Source: Candidatus Omnitrophota bacterium (GTDB lineage: Bacteria; Omnitrophota; Gorgyraeia; JAHJTE01). From it: a stretch of DNA of 64,000 bases. Below the pieces are notes generated by a model. It did not search any database. It had not been told where the DNA came from and was given only the letters and a program-made list of their open reading frames with translations. Numbering within the stretch: position 1 is the stretch's first letter; each line of letters starts with the position of its first letter. The stretch covers positions 2,027 to 66,026 of the forward strand of contig JAGVEL010000017.1 of assembly GCA_020058285.1 (NCBI GenBank), written 5' to 3'. This document shows, piece by piece, positions 3,386 through 38,200 of the stretch. The position numbers were made by a program, and so were the translations under genes.

Positions 3386-3730
3386 TCAATAATTTATAAG
3401 CCCTGTCAGCATCTTGCAGATTTCGTCTAAATTCCCTTTTAAAGCCTGTGCTTTTTCTACTTTGATGAGCCCTTTTCGCTTACACAGCTCAATAATCGGT
3501 ATACATTCAAAAGCAGAACCGCGTGAAATTCTAAAGAAGTTTATTCTATCTGCTTTATGATATCTTCCATTTCCTTCGGCGATATTCGTAGCTATGGATA
3601 ACGCCGCTCGATTCAAATGATCAGTTAGGTAATAACTTCTTTTTGGGAAGTCTTCGATTAAATTCCCGATTTCTTCGGCTAGAGCAATAGCCTTTTTATA
3701 AACTTCAAGGTTTTCAAATAAAAATGCCAT
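3386..3730 (-). CDS. Four-helix-bundle protein ('23S rRNA-intervening-sequence protein' family, TIGR02436-like)
   Basis: The 114-aa protein MAFLFENLEVYKKAIALAEEIGNLIEDFPKRSYYLTDHLNRAALSIATNIAEGNGR is typical of this small family. It is inserted between the tRNA and glmU. Confidence 0.75.
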   Translation of the reverse strand: MAFLFENLEVYKKAIALAEEIGNLIEDFPKRSYYLTDHLNRAALSIATNIAEGNGRYHKADRINFFRISRGSAFECIPIIELCKRKGLIKVEKAQALKGNLDEICKMLTGLINY

Positions 3731-23168: not shown

Positions 23169-25481
23169 CTATCTCCAATATCGCTGTAATGTAAAGTAAC
23201 CCTTGCGTAACTGTCTCAAAAACGGACTCATTGCTCCATCGCCTTGAGATACCACGCCAAGCCATTCTTCGTACATAAACCCATCGGGAAATGGCCCTTT
23301 AAATAAGCCTTTTGTATCATGAATGCTCGGCTCATAAGCCTTCCACCATTCATCCAAATACTCAAAAACAATACCGCCCAAGGCATTGCCATAACCATCT
23401 TTGTTAAAGGCTGTGTTTGACATTATATCCTGCCAACAACCTTCTAAAAATTGCGCCTGGCCAAGTTCAGCTTGCTCTCTATCCAAATTATGGGCATAAG
23501 CCGGGCAACCAAATTCAGTAATAAACGCGGGCTTACCTGTTTCAAAGAATACTGACTGCCAAAGGTCAGCAAAACCAAATTCTCCCCGGTAAGCATTTGC
23601 AGCAAAGATATCCACATTGGCAGCATATTTTGCAAACTTATCCAGAAATAACGTATCACCATTGGCTAAAGCTATCGGATGAACATTATCTATTCTTTTA
23701 ATCTCCGCAGCTACCTTGTCGCAGAATTTATAAAAGGCATCGGGCTTTTTATCGGCATTACAAGCAACGCCGTAAACATTTTCATTGCCTAAAAGCCACA
23801 TCAAAATATAAGGCTCATCTTTAAATTCGTTTACCATTTTTGTAACTGAATCCAGCATATTTTTTTGATGTTCGGGATTTTCATAATCTGTCCCTTTATA
23901 CCAATCCGCGCTAGAGCCAATTGCATACTTACCTAAATAATCGCCCATAATAACCATTATTCCAAATTCCTCATAGAGCTGACGCAGAAGTTTTTTATTT
24001 TTTTCAGTCAAGGCAAATGGTTGATGATAAATCCTTATTGTATTTACCCCCATATTTTTCATAAGCTGAAAATCGCCAATCGGAAACTCATCCGCATCCT
24101 GTTTGTTATTAAAATTCTTATCCACAAATGCGTCAAACGGGCCATCGCACAAATTGTTTCGGTTATAATCGTAATCCATCCAGTTTAGCAGAGTGCCGTC
24201 GTCAGGGCTCTGGCCAACTTTTGTCGGCGAATATGTTATACCTTTAATTATATATGGTTTATTATCCACATATAGCCGCCAATGCCGGTTATCAAACTGG
24301 ACTAGTTTAATCCTTTCCCCGCCGATTTTCTTTGTCACTTTTACTCTAAGCTTCTGGCCAGATGGCAGAGTAGCAACCTTATCCAGTAAATTAGTATGCA
24401 CTAACTTGCCAGGATCAACGATAACCACATCATTGGTAATATCCTTGTCAAAACTATTAATTATGCGCACCTTGGCATTTTCAAGAGTTAAACCTAAATT
24501 AGGATTGCGAAAACATAAATATTTGATCTTGGCAATTGCTACCGGGCCGATATACCAAGGCGTCTGCCAATAAGTCCAGCCATAGCTTGCCGGAAAATGC
24601 ACAATAATTGCGTAATATGCCTTTATTGCCTGCTCAACGAATCCGGCTTTCTCTAAGGCAAAGGCTGTATAAAAAAGTTTCACACCTTCAGGCTCGCTGG
24701 CAGTTGCCCATCTGTAAAAGGCAGCTTCTAAATCCGGGCTGTTAACATAATCCCAATGATTACCTTTAAGCCTGCCTTCTTTCAGTGCCTTGCGGAAATT
24801 AGGATCCCAGCGCACACTGGTTGAATTTGGGTATATTCCTTCGCCAACTGCCTGAGCCAACCCTTCCTGATCAATGATTTCATATTTATAATCCTTGCTG
24901 CCAATGCCGCTGAATTTTCCAAATTTTTTATATTCAACCGGAAACTGGTTACCTGAATCATAAAGAGTTAATTTAGTCACAGGTCTTTCGGCAACTGGTT
25001 TCACATCGTTGCCATATGGTTTTTTGCCCTCAATTTTGTCCAGGATATTCTGGCTTTTTTCAGATACAGACCAAAACCAGCCGCGCGGATCCCAGGCTTG
25101 TGCAAAATGATAATTAACTACTGCCTCTTTCAAGGCCGACTTTGCTTCCTCAAATTTTCCAAGCTTGAACAATGCTTCTCCTCGGATAAAACAACAGGTA
25201 GCAACATCATTTAATGCGCTGTATCGGCCTGCCTTATCTTTAGACGCCAGCGCATTCAAGCTTCCCTGTTGTTTATGGGCTTCCTGCGCATAATTATCAA
25301 TGCATTCCTGGGTTATCTTCATCAGATTATCTAAATCCTCTTTACTTGATGCCTCCCAGGCCTTGCGCACGTATTCAGCGGAAGGCAGTGGCTCAGCGAA
25401 AACAGTCCATGGTCCATGGTCCATGGTCCATAGTAAAAATAAAATAGCTAAGCCAACAACTTTGTGATTTATTTTTCTCAT
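23169..25481 (-). CDS. Secreted glycoside hydrolase, clan GH-A TIM barrel (GH5-like) with an N-terminal accessory region
   Basis: 770 aa with a signal peptide. The acid/base motif is LLGNENVYG and the nucleophile motif is AFITEFGCPAY. The context is a beta-glucoside utilisation locus. Confidence 0.7.
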   Translation of the reverse strand: MRKINHKVVGLAILFLLWTMDHGPWTVFAEPLPSAEYVRKAWEASSKEDLDNLMKITQECIDNYAQEAHKQQGSLNALASKDKAGRYSALNDVATCCFIRGEALFKLGKFEEAKSALKEAVVNYHFAQAWDPRGWFWSVSEKSQNILDKIEGKKPYGNDVKPVAERPVTKLTLYDSGNQFPVEYKKFGKFSGIGSKDYKYEIIDQEGLAQAVGEGIYPNSTSVRWDPNFRKALKEGRLKGNHWDYVNSPDLEAAFYRWATASEPEGVKLFYTAFALEKAGFVEQAIKAYYAIIVHFPASYGWTYWQTPWYIGPVAIAKIKYLCFRNPNLGLTLENAKVRIINSFDKDITNDVVIVDPGKLVHTNLLDKVATLPSGQKLRVKVTKKIGGERIKLVQFDNRHWRLYVDNKPYIIKGITYSPTKVGQSPDDGTLLNWMDYDYNRNNLCDGPFDAFVDKNFNNKQDADEFPIGDFQLMKNMGVNTIRIYHQPFALTEKNKKLLRQLYEEFGIMVIMGDYLGKYAIGSSADWYKGTDYENPEHQKNMLDSVTKMVNEFKDEPYILMWLLGNENVYGVACNADKKPDAFYKFCDKVAAEIKRIDNVHPIALANGDTLFLDKFAKYAANVDIFAANAYRGEFGFADLWQSVFFETGKPAFITEFGCPAYAHNLDREQAELGQAQFLEGCWQDIMSNTAFNKDGYGNALGGIVFEYLDEWWKAYEPSIHDTKGLFKGPFPDGFMYEEWLGVVSQGDGAMSPFLRQLRKGYFTLQRYWR

Positions 25482-25507
25482 CCGACCAGCGCTCCCGCGG
25501 TAATACC

Positions 25508-27034
25508 CTAGTCCCGTCTTTCTACTCTGCGCCTTTCCTCTTCTGCTCGTCTTTCTACTCTGCGCCCTTCTTCTTCTGCTCGTCTTTCTCCTCTGCGCCG
25601 CTCGACCTGCCCACGAATTTCAAAGCACTTAGCTTCTGTGAGATCAAAACTCATAATAACAAAAATAGCGGCTAAAGAGGTCACAATCGGGATGCCGATA
25701 TCACACAGCCGCATATTCAATAAAGCTTGCGGTGTTTGGTTGAGGCCTAATGTAACTTTAAAGCCGGTCATATTCAGGAGAATTCCGGAAATAAGCGATG
25801 AAGCTGCGACTCCCACTTTTACCATCCACCAGTAAATAGCGCCAAACATACCTTCCCTACGTGTATCGGTTCGAAGTTCATCAAGGTCGCAGACATCAGC
25901 GACCATAGAGCTAACTAAGGTAAAGAGTGATCCCAGGCCAAATGCGATGAACGGAGCAGCGATCATCAGTAAGTACGGATGCTCAGGATTATACCCTACC
26001 CACTTCAAAGCGTAACCGATTATTGAAATAGGAATAGTGATAAAGAATGTGTTTCTCTTACCGAGTTTTCTGGATAGCCATGTGGTTACGTAAATGGCGC
26101 CCATAGTACAAAGAGCAGAAAACGTCCCATAGATACCGAGCAAAAGACCGCCGTTTGCATAGGCTTGATCAAGAACAGGAGCATTCTTAAAGACGTAGAA
26201 GAAAACAACATAGATGGTAAAAGCTGACGCGCACATGAATCCACCAAAGATCAGTAAGGTGAACATGCACAGCTTGAAAAATGGCTTACATTTAAGAGTA
26301 ACAAAACCCCCGCCAAAGAAGTCTTTCGTCACATTCCAAGCGCCCTTGACATCAGGTTTTGGTAAGTCGTGAAAGTATTCTTTATTAAAGATAGCCGGCA
26401 GGATTCCGAACCCAACGATAATCATACCGATGATGATTGCAAGAACTCTTCCGCCATAAACGATATCCGGAAACCAGTTCTGGTTGTGCATAATAAACCA
26501 GCACCAAGGAGCGATGAACCAGGGCAATTGACCGACAATATTGCTGGCCCCCTGCAAGCGTGTGCGCTCATGATAATCAGGGGTCATTTCATATCCCAGC
26601 GCTATCCAAGGGATGGAAAAACAGGTAAATCCAATAAAATAAAGGGCCTGAAACACCCCGAAATACAAGACATAGAAACCTTCGCTATGCCCCTTATAGA
26701 GTTGATACATCAATGCGTAACAAATCCCGCCGGTAACCGCGCCAAATAATATAAGCGGCCTACGGCGTCCCCAACGGGTCCGTAGATTATCAGAAAAGTA
26801 GCCGGTTATGGGATCAGATATGGCATCAATAATACGGGGAATGGCTCCGACCAAACCCACTAAAGCTGGATTTACGCCTAATCCGAGGTTTAAAACAATG
26901 ACCATCTGTCCGATAAAGGCGGCCTGAGCAGTATTCGCAAATGCCCCCATACTGTATATGAATTTTTGAAAAAAAGGAATGCGGTCTTGGGGGGCTGTAA
27001 CATGGTGTTTAAGTTGACCAACTGATTGTTCCAT
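25508..27034 (-). CDS. MFS transporter, glycoside-pentoside-hexuronide (GPH):cation symporter family, with an Arg/Glu-rich repetitive C-terminal tail
   Basis: 508 aa. It has the GPH signature D..G..SDNLRTRWGRRRP and 12 TM helices. The tail RGQVERRRGERRAEEEGRRVERRAEEERRRVERRD is encoded by 33-bp tandem repeats at 25509-25600. Confidence 0.8.
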   Translation of the reverse strand: MEQSVGQLKHHVTAPQDRIPFFQKFIYSMGAFANTAQAAFIGQMVIVLNLGLGVNPALVGLVGAIPRIIDAISDPITGYFSDNLRTRWGRRRPLILFGAVTGGICYALMYQLYKGHSEGFYVLYFGVFQALYFIGFTCFSIPWIALGYEMTPDYHERTRLQGASNIVGQLPWFIAPWCWFIMHNQNWFPDIVYGGRVLAIIIGMIIVGFGILPAIFNKEYFHDLPKPDVKGAWNVTKDFFGGGFVTLKCKPFFKLCMFTLLIFGGFMCASAFTIYVVFFYVFKNAPVLDQAYANGGLLLGIYGTFSALCTMGAIYVTTWLSRKLGKRNTFFITIPISIIGYALKWVGYNPEHPYLLMIAAPFIAFGLGSLFTLVSSMVADVCDLDELRTDTRREGMFGAIYWWMVKVGVAASSLISGILLNMTGFKVTLGLNQTPQALLNMRLCDIGIPIVTSLAAIFVIMSFDLTEAKCFEIRGQVERRRGERRAEEEGRRVERRAEEERRRVERRD

Positions 27035-27057
27035 TAATTGACCTCCGTTCTTTTTTC

Positions 27058-27897
27058 TTATTGAAATATCGCCTGAGAAATTACTCCCTTGACAATATAC
27101 TTCTGCATCAACAGGTATAAGATGATTATAGGTAGGGCCGCTATAGTAAGTCCTGCCATCAAAAGTGGGTAATTAGTCAGGAACTCTCCCCGGAACATCA
27201 TCACCCCCCGTTGAAGAGGCATCAGGTTTTTACTGTTAAATATTATCAAAGCCAGTACATATTCGTTCCAGACATTCAGGGCGTTAAAAATCACCACCAC
27301 CGCAAGCGCCGGCTTGACAAAGGGCAGAGCCACATGTCTATAAATCCCCAACCTGTTGCAGCCGTCTATCCTAGCGGCATCCTCTAACTCTTTAGGCATC
27401 TTATCGAAAAACGTCTTAAGTAAAAATATGCTAAAAGACAGCCCCACGTTAATAAGGCATAAAACATACCCCAGCCGCGTATTGACCAAATGAAGTTTCA
27501 CCATAAGCACATATAAAGGAACGAAACTACCCGGCAGCGGTATCATCATCGCGGCAAGAAGCATGATAAAGAATGCCTTTCTACCGGGAAATTCCAATCG
27601 CGAAAACGCAAATGCTGCCAGCGATGATACTAAAACTATGCCGAATACTACAGTAAAGGTATATATTAAGCTATTCAAGAAATACCTACCGAAACCCCCG
27701 TCTATCCAGGCCGTGACATAATTCTCGAAATGCGGCTGTTGAGGAATTATGCTCATGTCAGAAAAAACAGTTGCCTGCGTCTTTAAGGAAGAACCAAACA
27801 TCCATAATAGAGGGAAAAGACAGGCAATCGACACCGAAATCAATAAAAGATGGACTAGGATGTTTGTGAAGGTTTTCTTTACCCTATATATCTGCAT
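27058..27897 (-). CDS. ABC sugar transporter permease (CUT1 family, MalG-like)
   Basis: The EAA loop is DAARIDGCNRLGIYRHVALPFVKPAL. The start is assigned to the internal ATG that overlaps the upstream permease stop (ATGA). The ORF-track start at 27984 would overlap the upstream gene by 88 nt. Confidence 0.75.
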   Translation of the reverse strand: MQIYRVKKTFTNILVHLLLISVSIACLFPLLWMFGSSLKTQATVFSDMSIIPQQPHFENYVTAWIDGGFGRYFLNSLIYTFTVVFGIVLVSSLAAFAFSRLEFPGRKAFFIMLLAAMMIPLPGSFVPLYVLMVKLHLVNTRLGYVLCLINVGLSFSIFLLKTFFDKMPKELEDAARIDGCNRLGIYRHVALPFVKPALAVVVIFNALNVWNEYVLALIIFNSKNLMPLQRGVMMFRGEFLTNYPLLMAGLTIAALPIIILYLLMQKYIVKGVISQAIFQ

Positions 27898-28928
27898 TAT
27901 GCCTGCCTCATATTTTGCGAGATCCTCTTCTGTACAAAGGAAATTGCCAGGAGGATTGCGCCGAATATTATACTCTGTGCACAAGCATACCCAAATCTAG
28001 AAGAGCCTATCATAGAACTTAGTATTCTGGTCACCGGCACCTCGGTATGGAATCCCGGCCCACCGTCGGTCATAGTAAGTATCAAAATAAACGACTGCAT
28101 AGAGCCTAAAACCGTCAGTATCGCCACCAGCACGAATACTGGGATCATCAAAGGCGCGGTAATATTCTTAAATACCTGCCAACTAGTCGCTCCCTCAACA
28201 CGTGCAGCTTCATAAAGCTGTTTTGGTATAGTCTGTAATCCAGCAAGTAGAATAACAAATCCCCAGCCAAAACCTTTCCAGGAATGTACTATCGCCACAC
28301 AGGTTAATGCTGTATGAGGATCAGACAACCAGGCCTTAGTTAAATTATTAAAACCCAACGCAACCAGCCAATGATTCAATAGTCCGTAATTGCCATCATA
28401 TATCCACTGCCAAACCAAACCTACTACAACCTCGGATAATACCGGAGGTATAAAAAATATCATCCTGTAGAAATTCCCCGCCTTCATTTGTCTATCGCAG
28501 GCTAATGCCAGAATCAAAGCCAGGGCATTCTGGAAAGTTAATGCGATTAAAGTAATATAACCGGCATTAAACATCGACTGCCACCAGACTTTATCTTTTA
28601 TGACCTCTATAAAATTATATAAACCTACGAATTTCATTGTTGGCAGGATACCATCCCAACTGTAATGACCCAGTTGTAAAACTTTTATAAAAGGATAAAT
28701 ATAAAATATCGAAAAAATTGCTAAGGCAGGAACTATAAAAAGAAAACTTTTGAATTGCTTTGCTAAAATAATTTTAGTAACGAGGATAATAAGAAGTGCG
28801 ACTGCCAATAATATTATGATCGGAGATATGAATCTAAGGTTGTGGGATTTTTGATAAATTAATTCTGCTAAAATGAAACACAATATTACTATGATTGATT
28901 TTACATAGATATTTTTAAATATCCTCAT
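27897..28928 (-). CDS. ABC sugar transporter permease (CUT1 family, MalF-like)
   Basis: 343 aa with 6 TM helices and the EAA motif EAARVEGATSWQVFKNITAPLM. Confidence 0.85.
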   Translation of the reverse strand: MRIFKNIYVKSIIVILCFILAELIYQKSHNLRFISPIIILLAVALLIILVTKIILAKQFKSFLFIVPALAIFSIFYIYPFIKVLQLGHYSWDGILPTMKFVGLYNFIEVIKDKVWWQSMFNAGYITLIALTFQNALALILALACDRQMKAGNFYRMIFFIPPVLSEVVVGLVWQWIYDGNYGLLNHWLVALGFNNLTKAWLSDPHTALTCVAIVHSWKGFGWGFVILLAGLQTIPKQLYEAARVEGATSWQVFKNITAPLMIPVFVLVAILTVLGSMQSFILILTMTDGGPGFHTEVPVTRILSSMIGSSRFGYACAQSIIFGAILLAISFVQKRISQNMRQA

Positions 28929-28931
28929 CGT

Positions 28932-30263
28932 TTAATTAGAAACTATCCTGGATGACTCTTTCTCTTTTATAGCCTGCAATTCTTGCGCTAACTGCTCAGG
29001 AGTCTTTTCTTTAATCAATATTAACTGAATGCCTTTCCCCAGTGCCTCAATGACACCTGGGAACTCATTCACTGGCCAAATGCTGGGATGAGTAGCGCTA
29101 TCCATACCATCTGCAAACTGAGCCAAAATCTTGGGGATTTCTGCAAGCGCAAATTTGTTGGAAGGCAAGTTTTTAGTCTGACTCGATAAATATGCCTGTT
29201 GGTCTTTATCTGTTAACCACTTTAAAAACTTTATTGCCTCTAGTTTCTTACTAGATCTATCATTTACAAGAAATGAGAATGAAGAGCCTCCGCCCCAAAT
29301 ATACATAGGATTTTTTCTATTTACTTTTGGTGGCAAGAATACCCCATACTCTAAATGGGGATTCATGCCATCATAAACATTAATACACCATGAACCATTA
29401 AATGCAAATGCCGCTCTTTCATTAGCAAATGTCTGCTCAGCGACTTTATTTTTCATTATGACAACGCCGGATACTAAGGCATGTTTATCTACCAGTTCTT
29501 TAAATAATGAAAAGACTTTAATCCAATCAGGATCAGTATAAGGTACATCTCCTTTTAAAGTAGCGATAACCTTATCTTCTCCCATAATATTAAATGCATA
29601 ATTGGACGCAAAACAATCAATCATCCAAATCTCTCCCCACCCCGAGACCAAACCTGGCACACCCACTTTTTTTAATTTATTGATATTGTCAATAAATTCC
29701 TCCCAGTTTGAGGGTGGTCTCTCTGGATCAAGTCCTGCCTTCTTAAATAATTTTTTATTGTAAAGCATCTGGATATTCATTATATCAATAGGAGCACCAT
29801 AGATGCCTGGCAATATGGCATAGGTATTATTCTCCTTGAATTCCACCACCTCTAGAGCTTTAGAAAAGAAACATTCTTTCCAAACGCCATTTTCCTCATT
29901 CATAACCTCGCTTAAATCTGCTACATGGCCACTTTTTATAAATGCTGCAAAATCTCTCTTTTCACCCAGAAGTCCGTATATATCTGGTAAGGTTCTTCCT
30001 TGGGCAGCAGCGCGGACTTTTTGGGCATAGATATCAGAAGGGGCATAGAGTTCAAAATTAACTTTTATGCCGGTTTTGTCCTCGTAGCGTTTGGCCAATT
30101 CTTGAAAGGCTGCCTCGCGGTCAGTCATCCAGTGCCAGACATTAATTGTCGGCTTGGAAGAAAGTTTCTTAGACGAACAACCTGTTAAAGAAAATCCAAA
30201 TGCCAAAGCACAAATGACAAGATAATAACAAAATTTAAATTTCAAATGAAAAAATTTTGACAA
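28932..30263 (-). CDS. ABC transporter extracellular solute-binding lipoprotein (family 1, sugar)
   Basis: 443 aa. The lipobox is LTGCSS. It has a family-1 solute-binding fold and sits upstream of two permeases. No ATPase gene lies in the locus, as is typical for CUT1 systems. Confidence 0.85.
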   Translation of the reverse strand: MSKFFHLKFKFCYYLVICALAFGFSLTGCSSKKLSSKPTINVWHWMTDREAAFQELAKRYEDKTGIKVNFELYAPSDIYAQKVRAAAQGRTLPDIYGLLGEKRDFAAFIKSGHVADLSEVMNEENGVWKECFFSKALEVVEFKENNTYAILPGIYGAPIDIMNIQMLYNKKLFKKAGLDPERPPSNWEEFIDNINKLKKVGVPGLVSGWGEIWMIDCFASNYAFNIMGEDKVIATLKGDVPYTDPDWIKVFSLFKELVDKHALVSGVVIMKNKVAEQTFANERAAFAFNGSWCINVYDGMNPHLEYGVFLPPKVNRKNPMYIWGGGSSFSFLVNDRSSKKLEAIKFLKWLTDKDQQAYLSSQTKNLPSNKFALAEIPKILAQFADGMDSATHPSIWPVNEFPGVIEALGKGIQLILIKEKTPEQLAQELQAIKEKESSRIVSN

Positions 30264-30272
30264 CTTTTCTCC

Positions 30273-32693
30273 TTATCCTAAAACTACCCTTACTTTATAA
30301 GTTTTCCCGGGCTGCCTTGGCTTAATTACGTTGCCGTCTATAAGTTGATTATCCACAAAAACTGCCTTAACACCCTTGGATTTTCCTTTTGGGTTTTCAA
30401 TTTCTATCATATATATAGCGCCTCTAAACGGCCGGCGGATAGAGCATTTTTTCCAGTGACGAGGGATACACGGATCAACCCTCAGGCCTTCAAAATCTCG
30501 GCGCGCACCTAACAACCACTCTGTTGCAGCCATAAAAGTCCAACCAGCTGTTCCAGTAATCCAGGTAAATGCACCCTCACCATATAGGTAAGGATGCTGC
30601 GGCCCGACAAGATATTCTGACCAGGCATATGGCTCTGTTTTATATAATTCGTAATCCTTTTGAAGATTAGGCATAATCTTACGCATTGCCTCATAAGCAA
30701 AATCTCCGTAACCTTTAGATAACAAAGCCACAATCATGAATGTTGCAGCATGGCAAAAAACAGCTGCGTTTTCTTTTGTGCCTTGCGAGAACATGCTTAT
30801 TCTGCCTAATTTCGGATTAAATTCACTATAAGCCGGAGCAAATAATGCTAGCCCATGGTCACCGTCTAAATATTTTCTTGCCGAATCAACGATTTTTTCA
30901 GTCCGGCCCGCATCATCAGAAATGCCGGATAGGATTGCCCAAGACTGAGCATTGAGATGAATTTTGCCTTCCTTATTTACCTTGCTGCCGTAAACTGTGC
31001 CGTCATCAGTAAATCCGCGCTGATACCAGGCTCCATCCCAGCAAACTTCATTAACCCGCTCGCTCATTGTCTTTGCTTTATTTAAAAACTCTTCTTTCTT
31101 GGCTTTATCGCCTACAAGCGCACAAAGTTCGGCAAATAATTTTAAACTGCGCACTAATGCCTGGGCAAGCCAGACACTTTCGCCTTTGTGCTTAATGCCT
31201 GCGGCATCAATAGCATCATTCCAATCAGCATGGCCGATGTGCGGTAAGCCCCGCTCTCCAACGTCATTAAAACAGAAATTAAGGTTTCTCTCTAGATGCT
31301 CAAACAATGTTCCTTCTCCATCTGTCGTTGCCCCGCCGGAGAAATTCACATCAATATTCCAGCCTTTGAGCCACTTATCCTTTAGGTAACTTATATACTC
31401 AGACAAAATAGCCTTGTCCCCGGTTTCCCGGATATAAGCATGCACAGTTGCAGTAAGCCAGATTTGATGGTCTTTGTTCGGACGATGCCCAGCTGGACCG
31501 GTTGTATCGCCCCAACCCGAAGCACTGGTGCCGTCTTTTCTGATGAGTGAGGCAATGTGCATTATGCGCTTACGGGTAAATTCAGGATTTATCGAAACTA
31601 AACTTTCCGAATCTTGGCAGGAATCGCGGTAACCTCTACCACCTGAGCCTTCATGATAATAACTAGGAGAACGGCTCCAGAGATTACAGATATACAACTG
31701 GTATTTTACCCAGATATTCATCATAAAATCAAAATCCTTATCCGGGGTATTAACCCAGATATTATCCAATATTTTTTTCTGCCAAAAACCCTTAACATTA
31801 TCTAATTCTTTTTTGGTATTATTTAAATTGCGGTATTTAGTAAGTAAGTGGCTGATATTCGGCAGGCCTTGTGTCTGGCCGAGGATTATTACAAATTCTT
31901 TATTTTTCCCCGCAGCTAAATTTAATTTATGCTTAAAGCAGGCAATCGCGTCTTCGCCGGAACAAAAATCAATATTCTTGAACTTATCATCAAAAATCAT
32001 TTCCGGATGCTGGTCAGTGTTATACCTGCCTAAGAAAGGATATTTTCTTGTAACATATCCATCGGCTTTTAAGGAAGAGGCAAAAAATGCCTGATAGGAA
32101 AAATGTTGGATATTGAAATCGCCCCAGGCTGCGGTTTTTTTAGCAAAAATCGCTTCGTGCTGCTTATCGAACCAGACGCGGTTATATAAATTCATAATAT
32201 TGCGATAGCGCAATTCCAAATGATAATCACCAAGCAGCCATTCGCAGTAAGGAAATAACTCTAATTGTTTTGATTTTTTTGTTTCATTTTTAATAGAAAC
32301 CAGCCAGATTTCGCAATGATCATTAGTCGGAACAAAATAGGTAATTTCAGAAGATACACCATTGTATTTTGTTTTAATCTTGGTGTAACCCAAGCCGTGC
32401 CGGCATTCGTAAAAATCAGGCTTTTCTTTAACCGGCTGATAAGTAAGGGACCAAATTTTGGATTTTTCCTTTACGTAGATATATCTACCTGGCCGGTCGT
32501 CTTGCCAGCTTGAAGGAAGCCAGCGCAATATCCGGTCAGAGCGGCAATCCTTTAAGAAACTATAACCGCTGGCACAATGCGAGATAACTGCGCAATATTC
32601 TTCATTAGTTAAATAATTAATCCAGGGGCGGGGTGTGAGGGGGTCGGTTACAACAAATTCTAATCCGTCGTTAGTAAAATGGCCGTACTTCAT
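30273..32693 (-). CDS. GH94 glycoside phosphorylase (cellobiose / cellodextrin / chitobiose phosphorylase family)
   Basis: 806 aa. The N-terminus MKYGHFTNDGLEFVVTDPLTPRPWINYLTNEEY matches the conserved GH94 start (MKFGxFDDxxREYVITxPxTPxPWINYL). The length is typical. Confidence 0.8.
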   Translation of the reverse strand: MKYGHFTNDGLEFVVTDPLTPRPWINYLTNEEYCAVISHCASGYSFLKDCRSDRILRWLPSSWQDDRPGRYIYVKEKSKIWSLTYQPVKEKPDFYECRHGLGYTKIKTKYNGVSSEITYFVPTNDHCEIWLVSIKNETKKSKQLELFPYCEWLLGDYHLELRYRNIMNLYNRVWFDKQHEAIFAKKTAAWGDFNIQHFSYQAFFASSLKADGYVTRKYPFLGRYNTDQHPEMIFDDKFKNIDFCSGEDAIACFKHKLNLAAGKNKEFVIILGQTQGLPNISHLLTKYRNLNNTKKELDNVKGFWQKKILDNIWVNTPDKDFDFMMNIWVKYQLYICNLWSRSPSYYHEGSGGRGYRDSCQDSESLVSINPEFTRKRIMHIASLIRKDGTSASGWGDTTGPAGHRPNKDHQIWLTATVHAYIRETGDKAILSEYISYLKDKWLKGWNIDVNFSGGATTDGEGTLFEHLERNLNFCFNDVGERGLPHIGHADWNDAIDAAGIKHKGESVWLAQALVRSLKLFAELCALVGDKAKKEEFLNKAKTMSERVNEVCWDGAWYQRGFTDDGTVYGSKVNKEGKIHLNAQSWAILSGISDDAGRTEKIVDSARKYLDGDHGLALFAPAYSEFNPKLGRISMFSQGTKENAAVFCHAATFMIVALLSKGYGDFAYEAMRKIMPNLQKDYELYKTEPYAWSEYLVGPQHPYLYGEGAFTWITGTAGWTFMAATEWLLGARRDFEGLRVDPCIPRHWKKCSIRRPFRGAIYMIEIENPKGKSKGVKAVFVDNQLIDGNVIKPRQPGKTYKVRVVLG

Positions 32694-32739: not shown

Positions 32740-32774
32740 CCTGCCTGCCGGCAGGCAGGGATTTTTTAAAAAAG
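32740..32774 (+). terminator. GC-rich perfect palindrome cctgcctgcc/ggcaggcagg followed by GATTTTTT (hairpin/terminator-like; orientation ambiguous)
   Basis: Seen directly in the GH94 operon leader region. On the plus strand it looks like an intrinsic terminator. It could instead be an operator or leader structure. Confidence 0.35.
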
Positions 32775-32852
32775 ATTACACCGATTAAAGCATAAATCGA
32801 TAAAGCAAAACTTTACCACAAATCAATATGCGGGTCAAGAAATTTCGTTTGC

Positions 32853-33203
32853 CTAAACCCCAACAGTTTCATTGCTTCGTAAACACTTCTCCAAAAGCAC
32901 AGCAAAAGTCACCAGATTAACCGACTGTTCTCTTAAAACCACTCCCGCCCGCCAGCCATCGGGAAAATATTCCCTGGACCAGGCGATTTGGCCGGTTAAA
33001 TCAATCAACGGAAGCTCGCCGGGAATTTTAATCTGAATCTTAATCGGGCCTTGTTGAGGAATTTTGTTTTTAGAAAACAACCCTATCCCTTTTGCTGCCA
33101 AATCCCTACTTTCCGCGGATAACTCTAAATCCGGAGAATCTGTTTTAATACGCAATGGCAAGTTCAGTAATATTCTATCAAAATATCGGCGTTCATTTTC
33201 CAT
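32853..33203 (-). CDS. PilZ-domain protein (degenerate second motif)
   Basis: 116 aa. The RxxxR motif is RRYFDR. The beta-barrel PilZ-like fold is inferred. The D/NxSxGG motif is degenerate. Confidence 0.55.
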   Translation of the reverse strand: MENERRYFDRILLNLPLRIKTDSPDLELSAESRDLAAKGIGLFSKNKIPQQGPIKIQIKIPGELPLIDLTGQIAWSREYFPDGWRAGVVLREQSVNLVTFAVLLEKCLRSNETVGV

Positions 33204-33600
33204 CTTCCTTCACCTCCGTGGGTCGAAGGCCGGCCCACCATTTTTTATTCAATTCTTGGTTACAGAACTTAAATGCATAATGAAATATTCTTTCCTTGTC
33301 CCGGTCAACAAGATTGCTAAAACTTACACCCGTAGCAAGGGTTTGCCCCTCACGAACAATCGGTAAATCTTGCTGCCAGGCAACTCTGCCTTCGGTGAAT
33401 ACAAAACGCTGCTCGTCGGGCAATTCAATAATTACTTCTAAATCTGTCTGAGGAAGGTATTTCACGCGAGATTGAAACCTTATGCCGCCGCAACTGATAT
33501 CGCCTGCCTGAGTGTAAATTTCCGGTTCTTCATAATCTACTCTCTTGACGCTAACTGCGCCGTCAAAATTCCAGCGAATCGCTTTTCTTCTTTCTTCCAT
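33193..33600 (-). CDS. PilZ-domain c-di-GMP-binding protein
   Basis: 135 aa with RxxxR (RRKAIR) and DxSxGG (GDISCGGIRF) motifs. Confidence 0.7.
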   Translation of the reverse strand: MEERRKAIRWNFDGAVSVKRVDYEEPEIYTQAGDISCGGIRFQSRVKYLPQTDLEVIIELPDEQRFVFTEGRVAWQQDLPIVREGQTLATGVSFSNLVDRDKERIFHYAFKFCNQELNKKWWAGLRPTEVKEDGK

Positions 33601-33620
33601 ATCCGCCCTCCTTTAATAAG

Positions 33621-33776
33621 CACATAACTTACGGAGCAATTGATTATCTTTGGCGACGTAAGTTATAAGTGCGAATTAAATCCAGCACTTATTTTACTGC
33701 AAGGCTTATAATTAAAATAAGTGCTGGGTCAAATTCAGACATACAACTTATGTCGTTGAAAACTCCATAAGTTGTG
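33621..33776 (-). repeat. Structured intergenic repeat element, copy 3 (hairpin A cacataacttacg..cgtaagttat, box GCGAATTAAATCC, hairpin B ccagcacttatttt..aaaataagtgctgg, hairpin C acaacttatg..cataagttgt)
   Basis: Seen directly. It lies 3' of the PilZ-ROK gene stop. Confidence 0.6.
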
Positions 33777-33839
33777 TCTTTATTTGACCTCCTTTCTTTA
33801 TTATATCTCTAAACGCAAATATTGTCTCTTTCTAAAATA

Positions 33840-35147
33840 CTATCGGCATATACCGACAAAAATTTCCTTCATCACCAGGCTTATCGCGCCTAAGGCCACA
33901 ATTTTATCCTCGTCAATTTCAGAAATCAACACCTTAATTGCCTGTGTTTCTTTGATATTCGCCAGATTTAATCTTGCATTCAGCACTTTTTTAACTTCCG
34001 GGAATTCTTTATCAACTCTCTTAGAAATATAAACAATATCCGGGCCTAAAAATTCTATCAACGCCAAGGCCTTCTCCACTAAATCCATAGGAACCAATTC
34101 AATTTTACTTCCAATTTCTTTTTCCGGCTTAAAAATATCCCCTCCTAAGATTAAACTTGTTAAATGCCGAGAGTGCATATATAGAATGCTCTTATTAACC
34201 AATTCTCTCACTAGCCAGCTCTGCGCAAAAGACTCTAAATGAAAACCTTCTTCAACAACAACTGGCAAATCTAATGCTTTAGATATGTAATTTTCAAGCC
34301 CATCCGGAACTTGGCCGTTAGAAACACCAATACCAATGCCTAGTATCTGGCTGTTTTTGGCCTTAAGCTTAGTGATAATATCAGTTAAAAACGAACTAAG
34401 CGTAATGTTGATATCTTGTTTATTATCAATTAGTTTCTTCTCTTCTAAAATATTCCCTAATTCTAAGTTAGTTACCAATGCCAGCAAATAACTCTTTTCT
34501 AGGTTTACTTCAACGCCTAAAATCAAGCCAAAATCCCTATTTAGTTTAAACAACTGCGCCCTGCGGCCTCCGCTGGATAAGTCTAAGCCGCAATCAAAAA
34601 CTAATCCTGCTCTCAAGAATTCATCAATAAATTTCCCAGTGCTTACAGCATTTAAGTTAATTTCTTTGCATATATCTGCCTTAGAAACCGGGCCAAACCT
34701 GCGGATATAATCCAGAATCTGACAGCAGCGGCGCTCTTTATCTCCCAGTTTAAACAACGGCTGCCTTAAAAACTTAATCTTGTAAGCCTTTTTCTTTGGG
34801 CTAATCCGCTTATATATATAGGTAAGGTAAATTTCTTTGTTTTTTGGGTCAATCTGCAATATCTTTAAGCCTAGACCAATAATCACGCCTTGCTCTCTTT
34901 TTATCCAGGCAACTTGGCAGACAGCATGCAAAAATTTATTTTCTAATTGCAAATCAAGATGCACAACATCACCGATTAAATCCTGGGACAAATTACCACT
35001 GACAAATAGCCCTCCTTCGGAAATATTCTGCGTCTGCGCCTCTTGCCAGACAGAGTCCAACCTATCTGAGAACCTGAACCGTACCGGTAGCGTCTCGTTT
35101 ACGCGCTCAAATTTGCGCTTGTCGTTATAGGTGGATGTGTTTAACAT
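33840..35147 (-). CDS. PilZ-ROK fusion: an N-terminal PilZ c-di-GMP-binding domain fused to a ROK-family (HTH plus sugar-kinase-like) regulator
   Basis: 435 aa. The PilZ motifs are RKFER (RxxxR) and NISEGG (D/NxSxGG) in residues 10-110. A winged HTH (ILDYIRRFGPVSKADICKEINLNAVSTGKFIDEF) and a ROK domain follow. Confidence 0.7.
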   Translation of the reverse strand: MLNTSTYNDKRKFERVNETLPVRFRFSDRLDSVWQEAQTQNISEGGLFVSGNLSQDLIGDVVHLDLQLENKFLHAVCQVAWIKREQGVIIGLGLKILQIDPKNKEIYLTYIYKRISPKKKAYKIKFLRQPLFKLGDKERRCCQILDYIRRFGPVSKADICKEINLNAVSTGKFIDEFLRAGLVFDCGLDLSSGGRRAQLFKLNRDFGLILGVEVNLEKSYLLALVTNLELGNILEEKKLIDNKQDINITLSSFLTDIITKLKAKNSQILGIGIGVSNGQVPDGLENYISKALDLPVVVEEGFHLESFAQSWLVRELVNKSILYMHSRHLTSLILGGDIFKPEKEIGSKIELVPMDLVEKALALIEFLGPDIVYISKRVDKEFPEVKKVLNARLNLANIKETQAIKVLISEIDEDKIVALGAISLVMKEIFVGICR

Positions 35148-35238
35148 AATTTACTCTTTACGCAGATGAACACAGATGTAAATGCGGCAGATGATCGCAG
35201 ATATCTTTGTAAGCTAGATATAATCTGTGTAATCATTT

Positions 35239-38200
35239 TTATTTAAATACCTCTGGAAATTTCTTTTGCAACCATTCTAATATATAGTTACTAATTGCTC
35301 CTGCCTCAATAATTCTCTTTATTTTTTGTATCCCAAATGATTGTAGTTCTTTTAATATTTCTCCTCTATGGTAGGATACATCGCCATAATATTTTATATC
35401 CTCAATTACTTCAAACATTTCTTCTTCGGAAAGATGTCCACATATTGGCTCTACTTTTTCGTCACAGTTTAGAATAAAACCCACGATAATTTTCGAAACA
35501 TTATTGCCTTGTTTATATTCCTGTCCTCTATATTTATCTAATCGCAATTGGCCAAGGCAATAATGAATCATATCCACAGTTAAATCAATTGGCAATTTTG
35601 ATAAAATATAATCGAAGCTGCTCCTTTCTCTTCCAAGTAATGACAAGGCCTCATATATATTATATGGATCAAGATAATAATAAGCTATGAAGTCATCTTT
35701 TAAATCCTCGATGTAACCACTATCAAATCCATCTCTCTTGGAGAACAAATTGTATACCCATGTTGAAACATCCTTTTTAATTGCAGATTTCATTTTCTCT
35801 AAACTCGGCGCTCCCCACTTCCAGGGATTTTCTCTCCAGCGCGGATGCACATATCCTCCAAGCTCATCCTTATCAACAAGCTCCTGTAAGTTTGTCCTTC
35901 TTATATAGTATGTATCCAAGTATTCTTTCCATTCTTTATCGGTTCTATCATCAAAATCCATTAAGATATCTTTTAATGTGTTCCTTAAAAGATGATAAAT
36001 ATCCTCCTCTGGAGGCAATTTATATTCAAATACCAAATCATATAATCGCCCAATCCAGCTCTTATTTTTGAGTTCCCTATTGAAATATGTATATAAGGGC
36101 TTAGCATAACGAGTTATCTCTACATCATCTATATGCCCTGGCTCTACGTAGGTAATGCTATAATGTACAGTAACCTCATTAAAATCGTTTCCCCATCTTT
36201 CTCGGCCTGTTTCACATACAGCTATTATTATGAAACCGTCCTGCTCTAACTTCTTTTCTGCTTCGCGCTCTTGATCACATGGAACGCGTAAAAAGTGGCA
36301 ATCTCCCTTTATTTCCCGATATAATTCGAAACCTAAGAAATTAATCTCTAATCTTAATAATTTCCTTAATATATCTTCATTAGGGATTTCGTTCAAGGCT
36401 AGCTGCCACGTCTCTTTGAGTTTCTGATCGCTAAGTCCATTGTTTCTGGCTAATTTAAACCATTCAGAGGCTAATTCATTAATATCAAAAGTGCTGCTGA
36501 ATAAATCTTGAGTTAGTTTTAACCGATCCTCAGCCTTAAAATCTTCTGAGCCGAGCAAAGTTATCCATTCTGGAGATTTTAAACTAATCTCATCCAAGTT
36601 AGCTTGCCAATACAATACTTTTTGCCCATGCCTATGCTTCAAAGAGCCTTCTCTAACCAACCTAAACCCTAACTGCCTATAAAAATCCTTAACTAAAGCA
36701 TTCTTACTTGTAGGAATATATGTTCCTTGTAAAGTCGTAACGCCTTGCTCTCTAAGCTGATTTACTACATATGCCATAAATGCGTGTTCTACAGTTAAGC
36801 CAATTGCCCGGCAACTTAAACAAAATGTATCAATCTCCCACTCACAAATATTATAACCCCTGCCTAATCTCATTACACCGACTATGCCTGCATTCCCAAA
36901 CTTATCTATCAATTCTAAGGTAAATATTTTGGCCGTTAAAGAACCTACGCCTCTTACATCCCATTTCACCACTTCTTTAGAACGCTCTCCCGGAGTTAGA
37001 TTAAACTGATTTGTTCTTTGGGTTAATTGGAATATGCGTGATATATATGGCAGGTTTTCTTGGCCTTCCCGGATAATTATCTTCATATCTAAAGAACGAT
37101 AATATTCCTCTAAAGAAACAGCCTGTCCTTTTAATTCGTCCCTTTTGCTTTTAGCGAGATAGAGTTGGGTTCTACGCCTATCCTCCTCAGTGATTTTCCC
37201 CTCAGGAAATAGCCCCGAGCCAATTAATAATTGTATTCTTTCTATTGGCCTATCCGGAATATCTGGCGTGAAAACCTCGGGATAGCTTAATCTTATTAAC
37301 TCTCTTTCATGCGGACTGTCATCTATGAATACCAAACTATCCATACCAATATTTAACTCCTCGGCTATCTCCCTTAAATTTGTAGCCTTATCCTGCCAAT
37401 TGGCTTTAATAATCGTAAAGTCATCTTTTCTTAGAATCATCTCAGGATGTCTTTCTAATACCCCGATGACCTCTTCGGGATTATTCTTGCTGTTTATGGC
37501 TAAGATAATGTCTCTCTCTTTGAGTGCCCTTACTGTTTTTTGAAATTCCTTATGCTCTTCTGTTATCTTTATCCCGTTAAATCCGTCTTCTCCTACAATG
37601 CCAGACCACAATATACCGTCTGCATCCAGAACGAGGCATTTTTTGTTATTTTGCTGTACTGGCGAACTGACGGTTTCATCAAGATTTTCTATCGGCAACA
37701 CCCCAGCCGCAACTCCGATATCAGATTCGGCAGGAATAGCCTCGAATGTTTTAAATACCTCTGGAAAATTTTGCTTAAGCCAATCTAATATTTCTTGGTC
37801 TTCGCCAAAAATCTTTATAAGTCGCTCTTTGCCGATTGCCAACAATTCCTTCTGGATTGCACTTCTTATTGCTAACATTTCTTTGCGCCAGAGTTCTGAG
37901 GTGTAGTTTTTCTTAATAATTAATTCTACTAACAGATCGCTAAGATACTGACTCATTGACACCTGGCTAAATTCAGCCCTTGTTAGCCAGACAATAGGAA
38001 TATTCCCTTCAATCTTCCGGTCCCAACTTGGCTTTATGTTCATGGAATAATTAAACATATCAGCCGCTAAATCCGGTGCTAAGTACGAAGTAATCTGGCC
38101 GAATTTTTCAGAAATACCGAAAACATTTGAAAAGATTTTATAGGCATTTTCAGGGTCCATATAGTAATATGCTTTTAATATTTGGCTGGCATTTTGTGCT

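What the first reader, a model, noticed from the sequence alone, without database searches (positions are those of the whole stretch)
33840..35147. PilZ-ROK fusion regulator heading a cluster of three PilZ-domain genes next to the sugar locus and the giant gene
A canonical PilZ c-di-GMP-binding domain (RKFER ... NISEGG) is fused N-terminally to a complete ROK repressor, with winged HTH and sugar-kinase-like domains. Two stand-alone PilZ genes follow, at 32853-33600. ROK repressors normally sense sugars. Fusion to PilZ would integrate c-di-GMP with carbohydrate signals. This architecture is not a commonly described c-di-GMP transcription factor, unlike the known MrkH, VpsT, FleQ and BldD types.
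Basis: partly seen in the sequence, partly recalled or inferred. Interest (0 to 1): 0.6.

Follow-up and report, generated by a model that had tools for sequence, protein, structure and literature searches.

The report
PilZ fused to sugar-blind ROK regulator
An uncultivated Omnitrophota bacterium encodes a rare, uncharacterised protein in which a cyclic-di-GMP-sensing PilZ domain is fused to a DNA-binding ROK-type regulator that has lost its sugar- and zinc-binding site, so the second messenger has probably replaced the sugar as the signal controlling a neighbouring carbohydrate-uptake locus.

Summary

It is not a "complete" ROK. Pfam's ROK model does not hit it. About 65 residues carrying the GExGH...CxCGxxGCxE zinc/sugar site are deleted, and the other sugar-contact motifs are replaced.

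The winged helix is the most conserved module, so DNA binding is probably kept. Sugar sensing is probably lost, and c-di-GMP is the likely input.

The architecture is rare: about 16 clusters among 1.84 billion representative proteins. Every confidently labelled member is from Omnitrophota. I found no publication describing it.

Distant members sit inside GH94/GH113/GH116 and ABC-transporter operons. This suggests an ancestral role as a local regulator of a beta-glycan locus.

The arrangement "giant gene, pilZ genes, sugar transporter" was already reported (West-Roberts et al. 2023 preprint), but without noticing the regulator.

Three conserved non-coding elements near the genes proved to be generic repeats, so no operator was identified. 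No c-di-GMP enzyme lies in the window. Ligand binding, DNA binding and targets remain untested inferences.

The parts
33840..35147 (-). PilZ-wHTH-ROK-like fusion gene (435 aa). The long start at 35147 is the correct one.
   Evidence: ORF. Eight orthologs of 436-443 aa align from about residue 8 onward. The JGI gene call P0001 (406 aa) starts 29 codons late and would remove the RxxxR motif.
34806..35123 (-). PilZ domain (aa 9-114): RxxxR at R11/R15, [D/N]xSxxG at N41-G46, six strands plus a C-terminal helix at 101-114
34743..34805 (-). Lys-rich linker (aa 115-135), the least conserved segment
   Evidence: 52 % identity among orthologs and 22 % across fusions. Low pLDDT at 114-118.
34533..34742 (-). 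Winged helix-turn-helix (aa 136-205) with the ROK-typical SSGGRR wing; the most conserved module
   Evidence: Lmo0178 match E=8e-9. 78 % identity among orthologs and 52 % across fusions. S191-S192-G193-G194-R195 are invariant. The recognition helix LNAVS(T/V)GKF differs from the clade consensus LN(I/V)xT(I/V)SNY.
33843..34532 (-). Reduced ROK-like (ASKHA) domain (aa 206-435). It lacks the zinc/sugar segment. The vestigial loop at 341-352 has low confidence.
33193..33600 (-). Stand-alone PilZ gene 2 (135 aa) with both canonical c-di-GMP motifs and a conserved C-terminal helix ...KKWWxGL
   Evidence: Pfam 39.3 bits. Ortholog alignment with R5, R9 and (D/N)-I-S-x-G-G conserved.
32853..33203 (-). 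Stand-alone PilZ gene 3 (116 aa). RxxxR is kept, but the second motif is D-L-A/G-A-K-G (Ser lost). It overlaps PilZ2 by 11 bp.
   Evidence: Pfam 30.1 bits. Ortholog alignment. Coordinates.
33800..33828 (-). Promoter-like site for PilZ2/PilZ3 (GAGACA-17-TATAAT). The TATAAT box is conserved in orthologous loci.
   Evidence: sequences.
33603..33790 (-). Three-hairpin 5' leader ahead of PilZ2. It is a copy of a generic Omnitrophota 5'-UTR repeat and is not specific to PilZ.
   Evidence: Fold dG -64.9 kcal/mol, z -6.65. Compensatory changes between loci. No Rfam family. Other copies sit ahead of PfkA, IlvD, Rho, RpsE and other genes.
35161..35202 (-). Four ATCTGYS heptamers at 10-bp period directly upstream of the PilZ-ROK start codon. 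These are a REP-like lineage repeat, not a demonstrated operator.
   Evidence: Of 120 metagenome contigs carrying the repeat, 49 are multi-copy and none encodes PilZ-ROK.
32810..32838 (-). GH94 operon promoter (TTGACC-17-TAAAGT with extended TG), conserved in four loci
30273..32693 (-). GH94 glycoside phosphorylase, the first gene of the downstream sugar locus and a likely regulatory target (inferred)
   Evidence: Pfam GH94 358 bits. The same position in L001, L002 and L006. GH94 also sits next to distant fusions.
23169..30263 (-). Sugar uptake and degradation genes: SBP (28932-30263), two ABC permeases, an MFS_2 sugar transporter and a GH2-like/TPR protein
20303..21544 (-). Second ROK regulator without PilZ (413 aa, HTH_24 + full Pfam ROK). 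It is the ancestral-type paralog, and it sits in the syntenic slot that PilZ-ROK fusions occupy in other Omnitrophota.
   Evidence: Pfam ROK 137 bits. 36-38 % identity to the ROK part of P0064 and P0059. Synteny with L003 and L129.
35239..63942 (-). Giant ORF (9567 aa) immediately upstream, separated by a 91-bp gap with no predicted promoter. PilZ-ROK may be read through from it.
   Evidence: Giant genes also lie upstream in L001 (18,282 aa) and L002 (at least 9215 aa).

Best explanation
The gene encodes a one-component transcription factor in which c-di-GMP, sensed by the N-terminal PilZ domain, has taken over the input role that a sugar plays in ordinary ROK repressors.

Proposed mechanism (inferred):
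- The reduced ROK-like domain serves only as the dimerisation and scaffold module.
- The winged helix binds an operator that has not yet been identified.
- When c-di-GMP binds, the RxxxR loop wraps around the ligand and the PilZ barrel repositions relative to the adjacent winged helix. This switches DNA binding on or off.
- The most likely targets are the genes it is always found beside: the two stand-alone PilZ genes and the GH94/ABC-transporter glycan-uptake locus, and possibly the upstream giant gene.

Shown here: the domain identities, the motif conservation, the loss of the zinc/sugar site, the rarity and lineage restriction, and the conserved synteny.

Inferred only: c-di-GMP binding, DNA binding, the direction of the switch, and the regulon.
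For: PilZ identity and intact ligand motifs:
- Pfam hit above cut-off.
- R11, R15, N41, G45 and G46 are invariant in orthologs. The motifs are kept in 14 fusions down to 23 % identity.

DNA-binding module retained and under the strongest constraint:
- The wHTH is 78 % identical among orthologs and 52 % across fusions, against 29-32 % for the other modules across fusions.
- The SSGGRR wing is invariant.
- The wHTH plus first sheet match the operator-bound ROK repressor Lmo0178.

Sugar and zinc site lost:
- No Pfam ROK hit.
- 63-66 aa deletion and replaced motifs.
- The zinc motif is absent in 14 of 14 fusions.

Regulon inference:
- The order PilZ-ROK, PilZ, PilZ, GH94, SBP is conserved in L001, L002 and L006; L005 conserves it as far as its contig reaches, to the second PilZ gene.
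- Distant fusions are embedded in GH113/GH94/GH116-SBP operons with abutting or overlapping coding regions.
- Separate promoters exist for PilZ2 and GH94.

Precedent for the logic: in Borrelia the ROK repressor BadR, whose DNA binding was unaffected by sugars, and the c-di-GMP/PilZ receptor PlzA act on the same glp operon as separate proteins (10.1101/2022.11.01.514788).
Against: - No operator was found. The three conserved non-coding elements around the genes are generic repeats, and the GH94 promoter footprint shows only -35 and -10 conservation.
- No GGDEF, EAL or HD-GYP gene occurs in the 64-kb window or in the sampled giant-gene tails. c-di-GMP metabolism in this organism is therefore assumed, not shown.
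- The first Arg of the fuller RRxxxR motif is Lys or Asn in this family.
- The sugar locus has its own ROK and LacI regulators, so PilZ-ROK need not control it.
- Some ROK-fold proteins do not bind DNA at all, for example MecR2 (own knowledge).
- Inter-domain geometry could not be examined, because the tools return no coordinates or PAE.
Confidence: 0.55

Rival explanations
1. Dual-input regulator. The ROK-like domain still binds a carbohydrate effector, and the PilZ domain adds c-di-GMP as a second signal on the same repressor.
For: The ROK fold with two subdomains and a cleft is preserved. E344-I345, a remnant of GExGH, is invariant in orthologs. The gene always lies next to carbohydrate genes.
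Against: The zinc motif and the following helices (63-66 aa) are deleted. The sugar-contact Asn-Asp is replaced (END to EEG). The GxGxG motif and the 'PN..W' loop are gone. Pfam ROK does not recognise the domain. Residues 341-352, which would line the cleft, are a low-confidence loop.
Confidence: 0.12
2. Protein-protein adaptor or anti-repressor rather than an autonomous DNA-binding factor. The reduced ROK scaffold would heterodimerise with the PilZ-less paralog ROK413 (20303-21544), or bind PilZ2/PilZ3 or another partner. That would make the partner's activity depend on c-di-GMP, in the way MecR2 acts on MecI and Mlc is controlled by EIIB.
Against: The wHTH is the most conserved part of the protein, and the DNA-contacting SSGGRR wing is invariant. 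That is hard to explain if DNA binding were dispensable. The recognition helix has diverged from the clade consensus as a block, which suggests a new DNA specificity rather than decay.
Confidence: 0.17
3. The PilZ domain no longer senses c-di-GMP and acts as a structural or protein-interaction module, as in Xanthomonas-type PilZ. The protein would then be a constitutive or otherwise-controlled repressor.
For: The best sequence matches of the clade's PilZ profile in the PDB are Xanthomonas PilZ proteins, which do not bind c-di-GMP (own knowledge). No c-di-GMP enzymes are seen in the window.
Against: Unlike those proteins, this one keeps the N-terminal RxxxR and the [D/N]xSxxG motifs, and they are conserved down to 23 % identity. 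The Xanthomonas matches cover only positions 32-102 and exclude the RxxxR region, while the cellulose-synthase PilZ match covers it. The structural matches include c-di-GMP-bound PilZ domains.
Confidence: 0.1

Closest known systems
ROK-family transcriptional repressors (Mlc, NagC, XylR, Lmo0178)
   Same: An N-terminal winged helix with the SSGGRR wing is followed by a two-subdomain ASKHA fold. The best sequence and structure matches are Lmo0178, the Mlc homolog and TM1224. The gene is located beside sugar-utilisation genes.
   Different: It has an extra N-terminal PilZ domain. It lacks the GExGH...CxCGxxGCxE zinc/sugar segment (63-66 aa) and other sugar-contact motifs. It falls below the Pfam and NCBIfam thresholds.
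MecR2 of Staphylococcus aureus (a ROK-fold anti-repressor, PDB 4ija)
   Same: It is a ROK scaffold repurposed without canonical sugar or zinc sensing (own knowledge of Arede et al. 2013; that paper was not held by the tools). It is a top structural match.
   Different: MecR2 has no PilZ domain and is reported not to act through DNA binding. Here the wHTH is the best-conserved module.
MrkH of Klebsiella pneumoniae (a PilZ-based c-di-GMP-dependent transcription activator)
   Same: It is a single polypeptide in which a canonical PilZ domain makes transcription respond to c-di-GMP.
   Different: MrkH has no classical DNA-binding domain. It uses a PilZ plus a PilZ-like N-domain to contact DNA. The present protein couples PilZ to a conventional winged helix on a ROK scaffold.
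BadR (ROK) plus PlzA (PilZ) control of the Borrelia burgdorferi glp operon
   Same: A ROK repressor whose DNA binding was not affected by sugars, and a PilZ c-di-GMP receptor, converge on one carbohydrate operon. This is the same two modules and the same kind of target.
   Different: In Borrelia they are separate proteins with no demonstrated contact. Here they are fused. This is an analogy only.
'Small pilZ homologs' downstream of Omnitrophota giant genes (West-Roberts et al. 2023 preprint)
   Same: It is the same locus type: giant gene, then pilZ genes, then solute-binding proteins, transporters and glycosyl hydrolases.
   Different: The preprint does not mention a regulator, an HTH or ROK (zero occurrences of 'transcription' and 'regulator'). 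It proposes partnering with GGDEF domains in the giant proteins, and none is detectable in this giant gene.

Membership tests
PilZ domain (PF07238), canonical c-di-GMP-binding type | Match to the family HMM above the curated threshold, over the full domain | tested here: met
   47.3 bits against a cut-off of 22.5; profile positions 1-101 of 102.
PilZ domain (PF07238), canonical c-di-GMP-binding type | N-terminal RxxxR motif | tested here: met
   R11-K-F-E-R15. Both Arg are invariant in 8 orthologs and in 19 fusions. The preceding residue is K or N here, and R in distant fusions.
PilZ domain (PF07238), canonical c-di-GMP-binding type | [D/N]-h-S-x-x-G motif | tested here: met
   N41-I-S-E-G-G46. 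Ser is replaced by Gly in one ortholog (P0007) and by Ala or Gly in two distant fusions.
PilZ domain (PF07238), canonical c-di-GMP-binding type | Six-stranded beta-barrel followed by a C-terminal alpha-helix | tested here: met
PilZ domain (PF07238), canonical c-di-GMP-binding type | Binds c-di-GMP | not testable with these tools
   Needs DRaCALA, ITC or MST on purified protein.
ROK family (PF00480), repressor subgroup | N-terminal winged helix-turn-helix with the SSGGR(R/K)P wing | tested here: met
   Residues 142-276 align to Lmo0178 at E=8e-9. SSGGRR is invariant. Pfam HTH models hit only weakly.
ROK family (PF00480), repressor subgroup | Match to the ROK HMM above the curated threshold | tested here: not met
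   No PF00480 hit even at E<=1. NagC and Mlc equivalog models score 25 and 19 bits against cut-offs of 650 and 530. Distant fusions do pass: P0064 at 118 bits and P0059 at 78 bits.
ROK family (PF00480), repressor subgroup | Two-subdomain ASKHA (sugar-kinase/actin-like) fold | tested here: met
ROK family (PF00480), repressor subgroup | Zinc-binding motif GHx(9-11)CxCGxxGCxE (as recalled from the ROK literature) | tested here: not met
   The motif is absent and the segment is deleted (63-66 aa between residues 351 and 352). It is also absent in 14 of 14 fusions and in the window's ROK413 and P0009. It is present in Bacillales ROK controls.
ROK family (PF00480), repressor subgroup | Sugar-contact residues (Asn-Asp of ENDxN, Glu and His of GExGH, Glu after the zinc motif; own knowledge of ROK structures) | tested here: not met
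   END is replaced by EEG. GExGH is replaced by KEIGS, so only the Glu is kept. The last Glu is lost with the deletion.
ROK family (PF00480), repressor subgroup | Sequence-specific operator binding released by an effector | not testable with these tools
   No operator could be inferred. Needs EMSA or DAP-seq.
MrkH-type PilZ transcription factor | PilZN2 + PilZ two-barrel architecture that itself contacts DNA, with no HTH | tested here: not met
   There is a single PilZ followed by a wHTH and a ROK-like fold.

The most novel reading that the evidence does not exclude
This is the first example of a PilZ domain wired directly to a classical winged-helix DNA-binding domain. It would be a c-di-GMP-gated, ROK-derived transcription factor in which the second messenger has replaced the sugar effector. 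In Omnitrophota it would couple c-di-GMP levels to expression of the glycan-harvesting locus and perhaps of the adjacent giant 'Archaeovorin'-type gene. That would give the first regulatory handle on when these giant genes and their associated uptake systems are switched on.
Probability: 0.3. Interest if true: 0.7.

Novelty: new variant of a known kind. Interest (0 to 1): 0.5.

Why it matters
[quoted passage not shown] A PilZ fused to an ordinary winged helix on a ROK scaffold would be a new and simple design for c-di-GMP control of transcription.

It would also be a clear case of effector replacement: the sugar and zinc site is lost and a nucleotide-sensing domain is gained. The evolutionary series is visible in the sequences, running from PilZ-less ROK413-type regulators, through long fusions with a remnant CW(E/L)...C, to reduced fusions.

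Biologically, it sits at a conserved junction between the enigmatic giant genes of Omnitrophota and a glycan-uptake locus. If it is the switch for either, it offers an experimentally tractable entry point (a 435-aa soluble protein) into the physiology of an uncultivated, possibly predatory or symbiotic phylum.

Practically, current annotation hides the architecture. NCBI calls members either 'PilZ domain-containing protein' or 'ROK family protein'. One JGI gene call truncates the c-di-GMP motif.

Tried and rejected
1. **The PilZ2 leader as a riboswitch.** The ~190-nt structured leader ahead of PilZ2 (33603-33790) looked like a PilZ-associated, perhaps c-di-GMP, riboswitch. It folds strongly (z -6.65), shows compensatory changes and occurs three times in L002. 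Rejected: Rfam has no match. A genome scan found copies in Omnitrophota, and in bins labelled Planctomycetia or Brocadiaceae, directly ahead of unrelated housekeeping genes such as PfkA, IlvD (twice), Rho, RpsE and LipB. It is a generic 5'-UTR repeat.

2. **The ATCTGYS repeats as the operator.** They lie just upstream of the PilZ-ROK start codon (35161-35202) and are enriched in the window, L001 and L002 against other loci. Rejected: 49 multi-copy contigs among 120 metagenome hits carry the repeat, and none encodes a PilZ-ROK homolog. In L001 the repeats also form REP-like inverted pairs after the SBP gene.

3. **The GC palindrome** CCTGCCTGCCGGCAGGCAGG upstream of GH94 (32740-32759). It recurs as the central hairpin of the generic leader in another genome (L051), so it is probably a remnant of that repeat family.

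4. **Footprinting of the GH94 upstream region in four loci.** It gave only promoter elements.

5. **GGDEF domains in the giant protein** as the local c-di-GMP source, as the 2023 preprint suggested. None was found in this giant ORF, in the C-terminal ~3300 aa of the L001 and L002 giant genes, or in any other window ORF.

6. **The profile search of the word-indexed protein database** recovered few distant fusions. The census therefore relies on the exhaustive search.

7. **The recalled PROSITE ROK signature** hit only 2 of 5 canonical controls, so I did not use it as a test.

8. **The MecR2 structure paper** could not be read. Statements about MecR2's biochemistry are from memory.
Full report
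**What is at the coordinates.**
The window holds a 435-aa ORF at 33840-35147 on the minus strand. A 9567-aa ORF (35239-63942) lies upstream. Downstream come two small ORFs (33193-33600, 135 aa; 32853-33203, 116 aa), a GH94 gene, a solute-binding protein and two ABC permeases, all on the same strand. G+C is about 36-44 % throughout, with no compositional break at the gene.

**PilZ domain: confirmed.**
- Residues 9-112 match Pfam PilZ over the whole model: E=2.9e-12, 47.3 bits, cut-off 22.5.
- Both small ORFs also pass the cut-off.
- Eight orthologs (57-100 % identity, 436-443 aa) were found among 5.8 billion proteins. The named ones are from Omnitrophota.
- In their alignment R11, R15, N41, I42, E44, G45 and G46 are invariant. 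S43 is Gly in one sequence.
- The motifs persist in 14 more distant fusions, where they read RRxxxR and [D/N]-h-S-x-x-G.
- With an alignment of 19 fusions, AlphaFold2 gives mean pLDDT 83.5. The PilZ part scores about 85-92 and has six strands plus a C-terminal helix.
- A profile of the clade's N-terminal segments also hits solved PilZ chains by sequence.
- The JGI gene call for this very protein (P0001, 406 aa) starts 29 codons late and would delete RxxxR. The orthologs support the long start.

**ROK part: real, but not complete.**
- Pfam's ROK model does not hit the protein even at E<=1.
- The NCBIfam NagC and Mlc models touch only residues 143-275, at 25 and 19 bits.
- The PDB sequence search finds the operator-binding ROK repressor Lmo0178 at E=8e-9, again only for 142-276.
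- Alignment with canonical ROK regulators shows what is missing:
  - a 63-66-residue block between residues 351 and 352, which in canonical members carries GExGH and CxCGxxGCxE plus the following helices;
  - the ~15-residue 'APNLxW' loop;
  - ENDANA, replaced by EEGFHL;
  - GxGxG, replaced by HSRHLTS.
- All eight orthologs share these changes, so this is a stable derived state.
- The residual loop 341-352 is the only low-confidence stretch of the domain.

**DNA-binding module.**
- The winged helix (136-205) is the most conserved part. It is 78 % identical among orthologs and 52 % across all fusions. The corresponding figures are 61/32 % for PilZ, 52/29 % for ROK-N and 61/31 % for ROK-C.
- The ROK-typical wing SSGGRR is invariant.
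- The recognition helix of the close family (LNAVS(T/V)GKF) differs as a block from the clade consensus LN(I/V)xT(I/V)SNY. This hints at a changed operator specificity.

**How widespread is the architecture.**
- An exhaustive HMMER pass over 1.84 billion representative proteins found 13 hits below 1e-30. About 16 clusters at 50 % identity align from the PilZ domain into the ROK-like part.
- Pfam confirms PilZ + HTH + ROK in them. P0064 (545 aa, ROK 118 bits) and P0059 (514 aa, 78 bits) have a full-length ROK match.
- Where sources give names, they are Omnitrophota, including Ca. Gygaella obscura. The one exception is a 1.3-kb contig binned as Pseudomonadota.
- None of the fusions has the zinc motif. 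The long ones keep only a CW(E/L)xxxxC remnant.
- The PilZ-less Omnitrophota ROKs P0009 and the window's own ROK413 also lack the zinc motif.
- ROK413 (20303-21544; HTH_24 + ROK at 137 bits) is 36-38 % identical over its full length to the ROK part of the long fusions.
- A rough NJ tree puts the reduced fusions in one clade. The long fusions fall among PilZ-less Omnitrophota ROKs. Resolution is low, and gene-start errors could hide PilZ domains.

**Genomic context.**
- The order giant gene, PilZ-ROK, PilZ, PilZ, GH94, SBP recurs in L001 (giant gene 18,282 aa) and L002 (at least 9215 aa). In L005 the contig ends inside the second PilZ gene. L006 has a small insertion upstream.
- The tails of the giant genes differ completely between loci: YkuD/LysM in one, subtilase/alginate-export in another, Tpt1 here. 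The PilZ-ROK block is conserved.
- Distant fusions lack the giant gene and the extra PilZ genes but sit inside glycan operons:
  - GH116, PilZ-ROK, SBP in L127;
  - GH113/GH94/GH116, PilZ-ROK, SBP in L128, with overlapping stop and start codons;
  - GH113/GH94/GT2, PilZ-ROK, then unknown genes, LacI, RNR and GidA in L129;
  - a similar slot in Ca. Gygaella.
- That last slot is the one ROK413 occupies in this window.
- The deep association is therefore with beta-glycan utilisation genes. This is the usual situation of a ROK local regulator.

**Prior literature.**
- West-Roberts et al. [quoted passage not shown] They suggest interaction with GGDEF domains in the giant proteins.
- Their text never mentions a regulator or transcription.
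- Galperin and Chou's PilZ survey and a 2025 review of c-di-GMP effectors contain no ROK or HTH fusion. MrkH is the only PilZ-based transcription factor they discuss.
- Full-text searches for PilZ with ROK, winged helix or NagC returned nothing relevant.
- One analogy did emerge. In Borrelia, the ROK repressor BadR (DNA binding unaffected by sugars) and the c-di-GMP receptor PlzA act on the same glp operon.

**Tests of the c-di-GMP premise and the search for cis elements.**
- No GGDEF, EAL or HD-GYP domain occurs in the giant ORF, in any other window ORF, or in the sampled tails of the orthologous giant genes.
- Promoter-like sites precede PilZ2 (33800-33828) and GH94 (32810-32838, conserved in four loci). 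None is predicted in the 91-bp gap before PilZ-ROK.
- Three conserved non-coding features were followed up, and all turned out to be generic:
  - the three-hairpin PilZ2 leader;
  - the ATCTGYS repeats upstream of PilZ-ROK;
  - the GC palindrome upstream of GH94.
- The operator therefore remains unknown.

**Interpretation.**
The best-supported reading is a c-di-GMP-responsive winged-helix regulator built on a sugar-blind ROK scaffold. It most likely controls the adjacent PilZ and GH94/ABC genes and possibly the giant gene (confidence about 0.55).

Three rivals remain:
- a true dual sugar plus c-di-GMP sensor, disfavoured by the loss of the site;
- a MecR2-like protein-protein adaptor, perhaps pairing with ROK413 or the small PilZ proteins, disfavoured by the strong wHTH conservation;
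- a PilZ domain that no longer binds the nucleotide, disfavoured by motif conservation.

All functional steps are inferences: ligand binding, DNA binding, direction of control and targets.

**Verdict.**
- The claim of a 'complete ROK' is wrong.
- The 'integration of sugar and c-di-GMP ligands' is unlikely.
- The locus layout is already published.
- The fusion itself is a rare, lineage-restricted, undescribed variant of two well-known kinds.
- It is of moderate interest and easy to test biochemically.

Noticed in passing
window 33603-33790 (-); also L002 (three copies), L005, and L042, L051, L062, L064, L065, L098, L116, L083, L113, L120, L123: A widespread Omnitrophota 5'-UTR element made of three hairpins: GGACAUAACUUA..UAAGUUAUCUGUCC / GAAUUUGACCC..GGGUUCAAUUC / GCAC..ACUUACG..CGUAAGU..GUGC. 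It always ends in UCAUUGAAGGAGG, 5-10 nt before a start codon. It sits ahead of unrelated housekeeping genes such as PfkA, IlvD, Rho, RpsE, LipB and NifU-like. It is absent from Rfam and shows compensatory stem changes. It could be a MITE/REP-like repeat or a generic translation leader, and it may deserve its own study.
   Followed up: yes
window 35161-35202 (-); L001 9945-9986, 11314-11352, 12308-12324, 16629-16717; L002 9975-9991, 13292-13308: Tandem ATCTGYS heptamers at 10-bp period, sometimes as long inverted pairs (after the SBP gene in L001, resembling the E. coli malE-malF REP). They occur on many metagenome contigs that lack PilZ-ROK, so they are a lineage-specific REP-like family.
   Followed up: yes
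window 35239-63942 (-): The giant ORF (9567 aa) contains the motif SSP[ILV] 22 times, against 0.4 expected by shuffling (maximum 3). The copies are spaced about 200-1000 aa apart, in linkers between recognisable modules (methyltransferases, HAD, adenylate-kinase-like, Tpt1). The motif may mark module boundaries or processing sites of a polyprotein.
   Followed up: partly
window 20303-21544 (-) and 18016-19020 (-): A second ROK regulator without PilZ (413 aa, also lacking the zinc motif: AGELSI...NCEFGAPC) and a LacI regulator flank the same sugar region. ROK413 sits in the syntenic slot that PilZ-ROK fusions occupy in Ca. Gygaella (L003) and in L129.
   Followed up: partly
window 32740-32759: A perfect 20-bp GC palindrome, CCTGCCTGCCGGCAGGCAGG, lies in the GH94 5' region. 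The same palindrome appears three times in L002 and as the central hairpin of the generic leader in L051.
   Followed up: partly
window 35061-35147 (the first 29 codons of the gene): The public JGI gene call for this exact protein (P0001, 406 aa) starts at codon 30 and removes the RxxxR c-di-GMP motif. NCBI names family members either 'PilZ domain-containing protein' or 'ROK family protein', so the architecture is hidden in annotation.
   Followed up: yes
L001 1-9936 and L002 1-9920 compared with window 35239-45000: The C-terminal ~3300 aa of the giant genes upstream of orthologous PilZ-ROK genes carry unrelated domains: YkuD/LysM/nucleotidyltransferase/EamA in one, subtilase/alginate-export/fn3 in another, Tpt1 here. 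The giant genes turn over much faster than the regulatory block beside them.
   Followed up: partly
window 32853-33203 (-) and its orthologs: The third PilZ protein consistently has Ala or Gly in place of the Ser of [D/N]xSxxG, while keeping RxxxR. It overlaps PilZ2 by 11 bp. It may be a low-affinity or non-binding partner of PilZ2.
   Followed up: partly
window 3386-3730 (-); L001 14857-15216; L002 16447-16806: Small 23S_rRNA_IVP (four-helix-bundle) genes recur. In L001 and L002 one is inserted between GH94 and the SBP gene. In this window the only copy lies 25 kb away.
   Followed up: no
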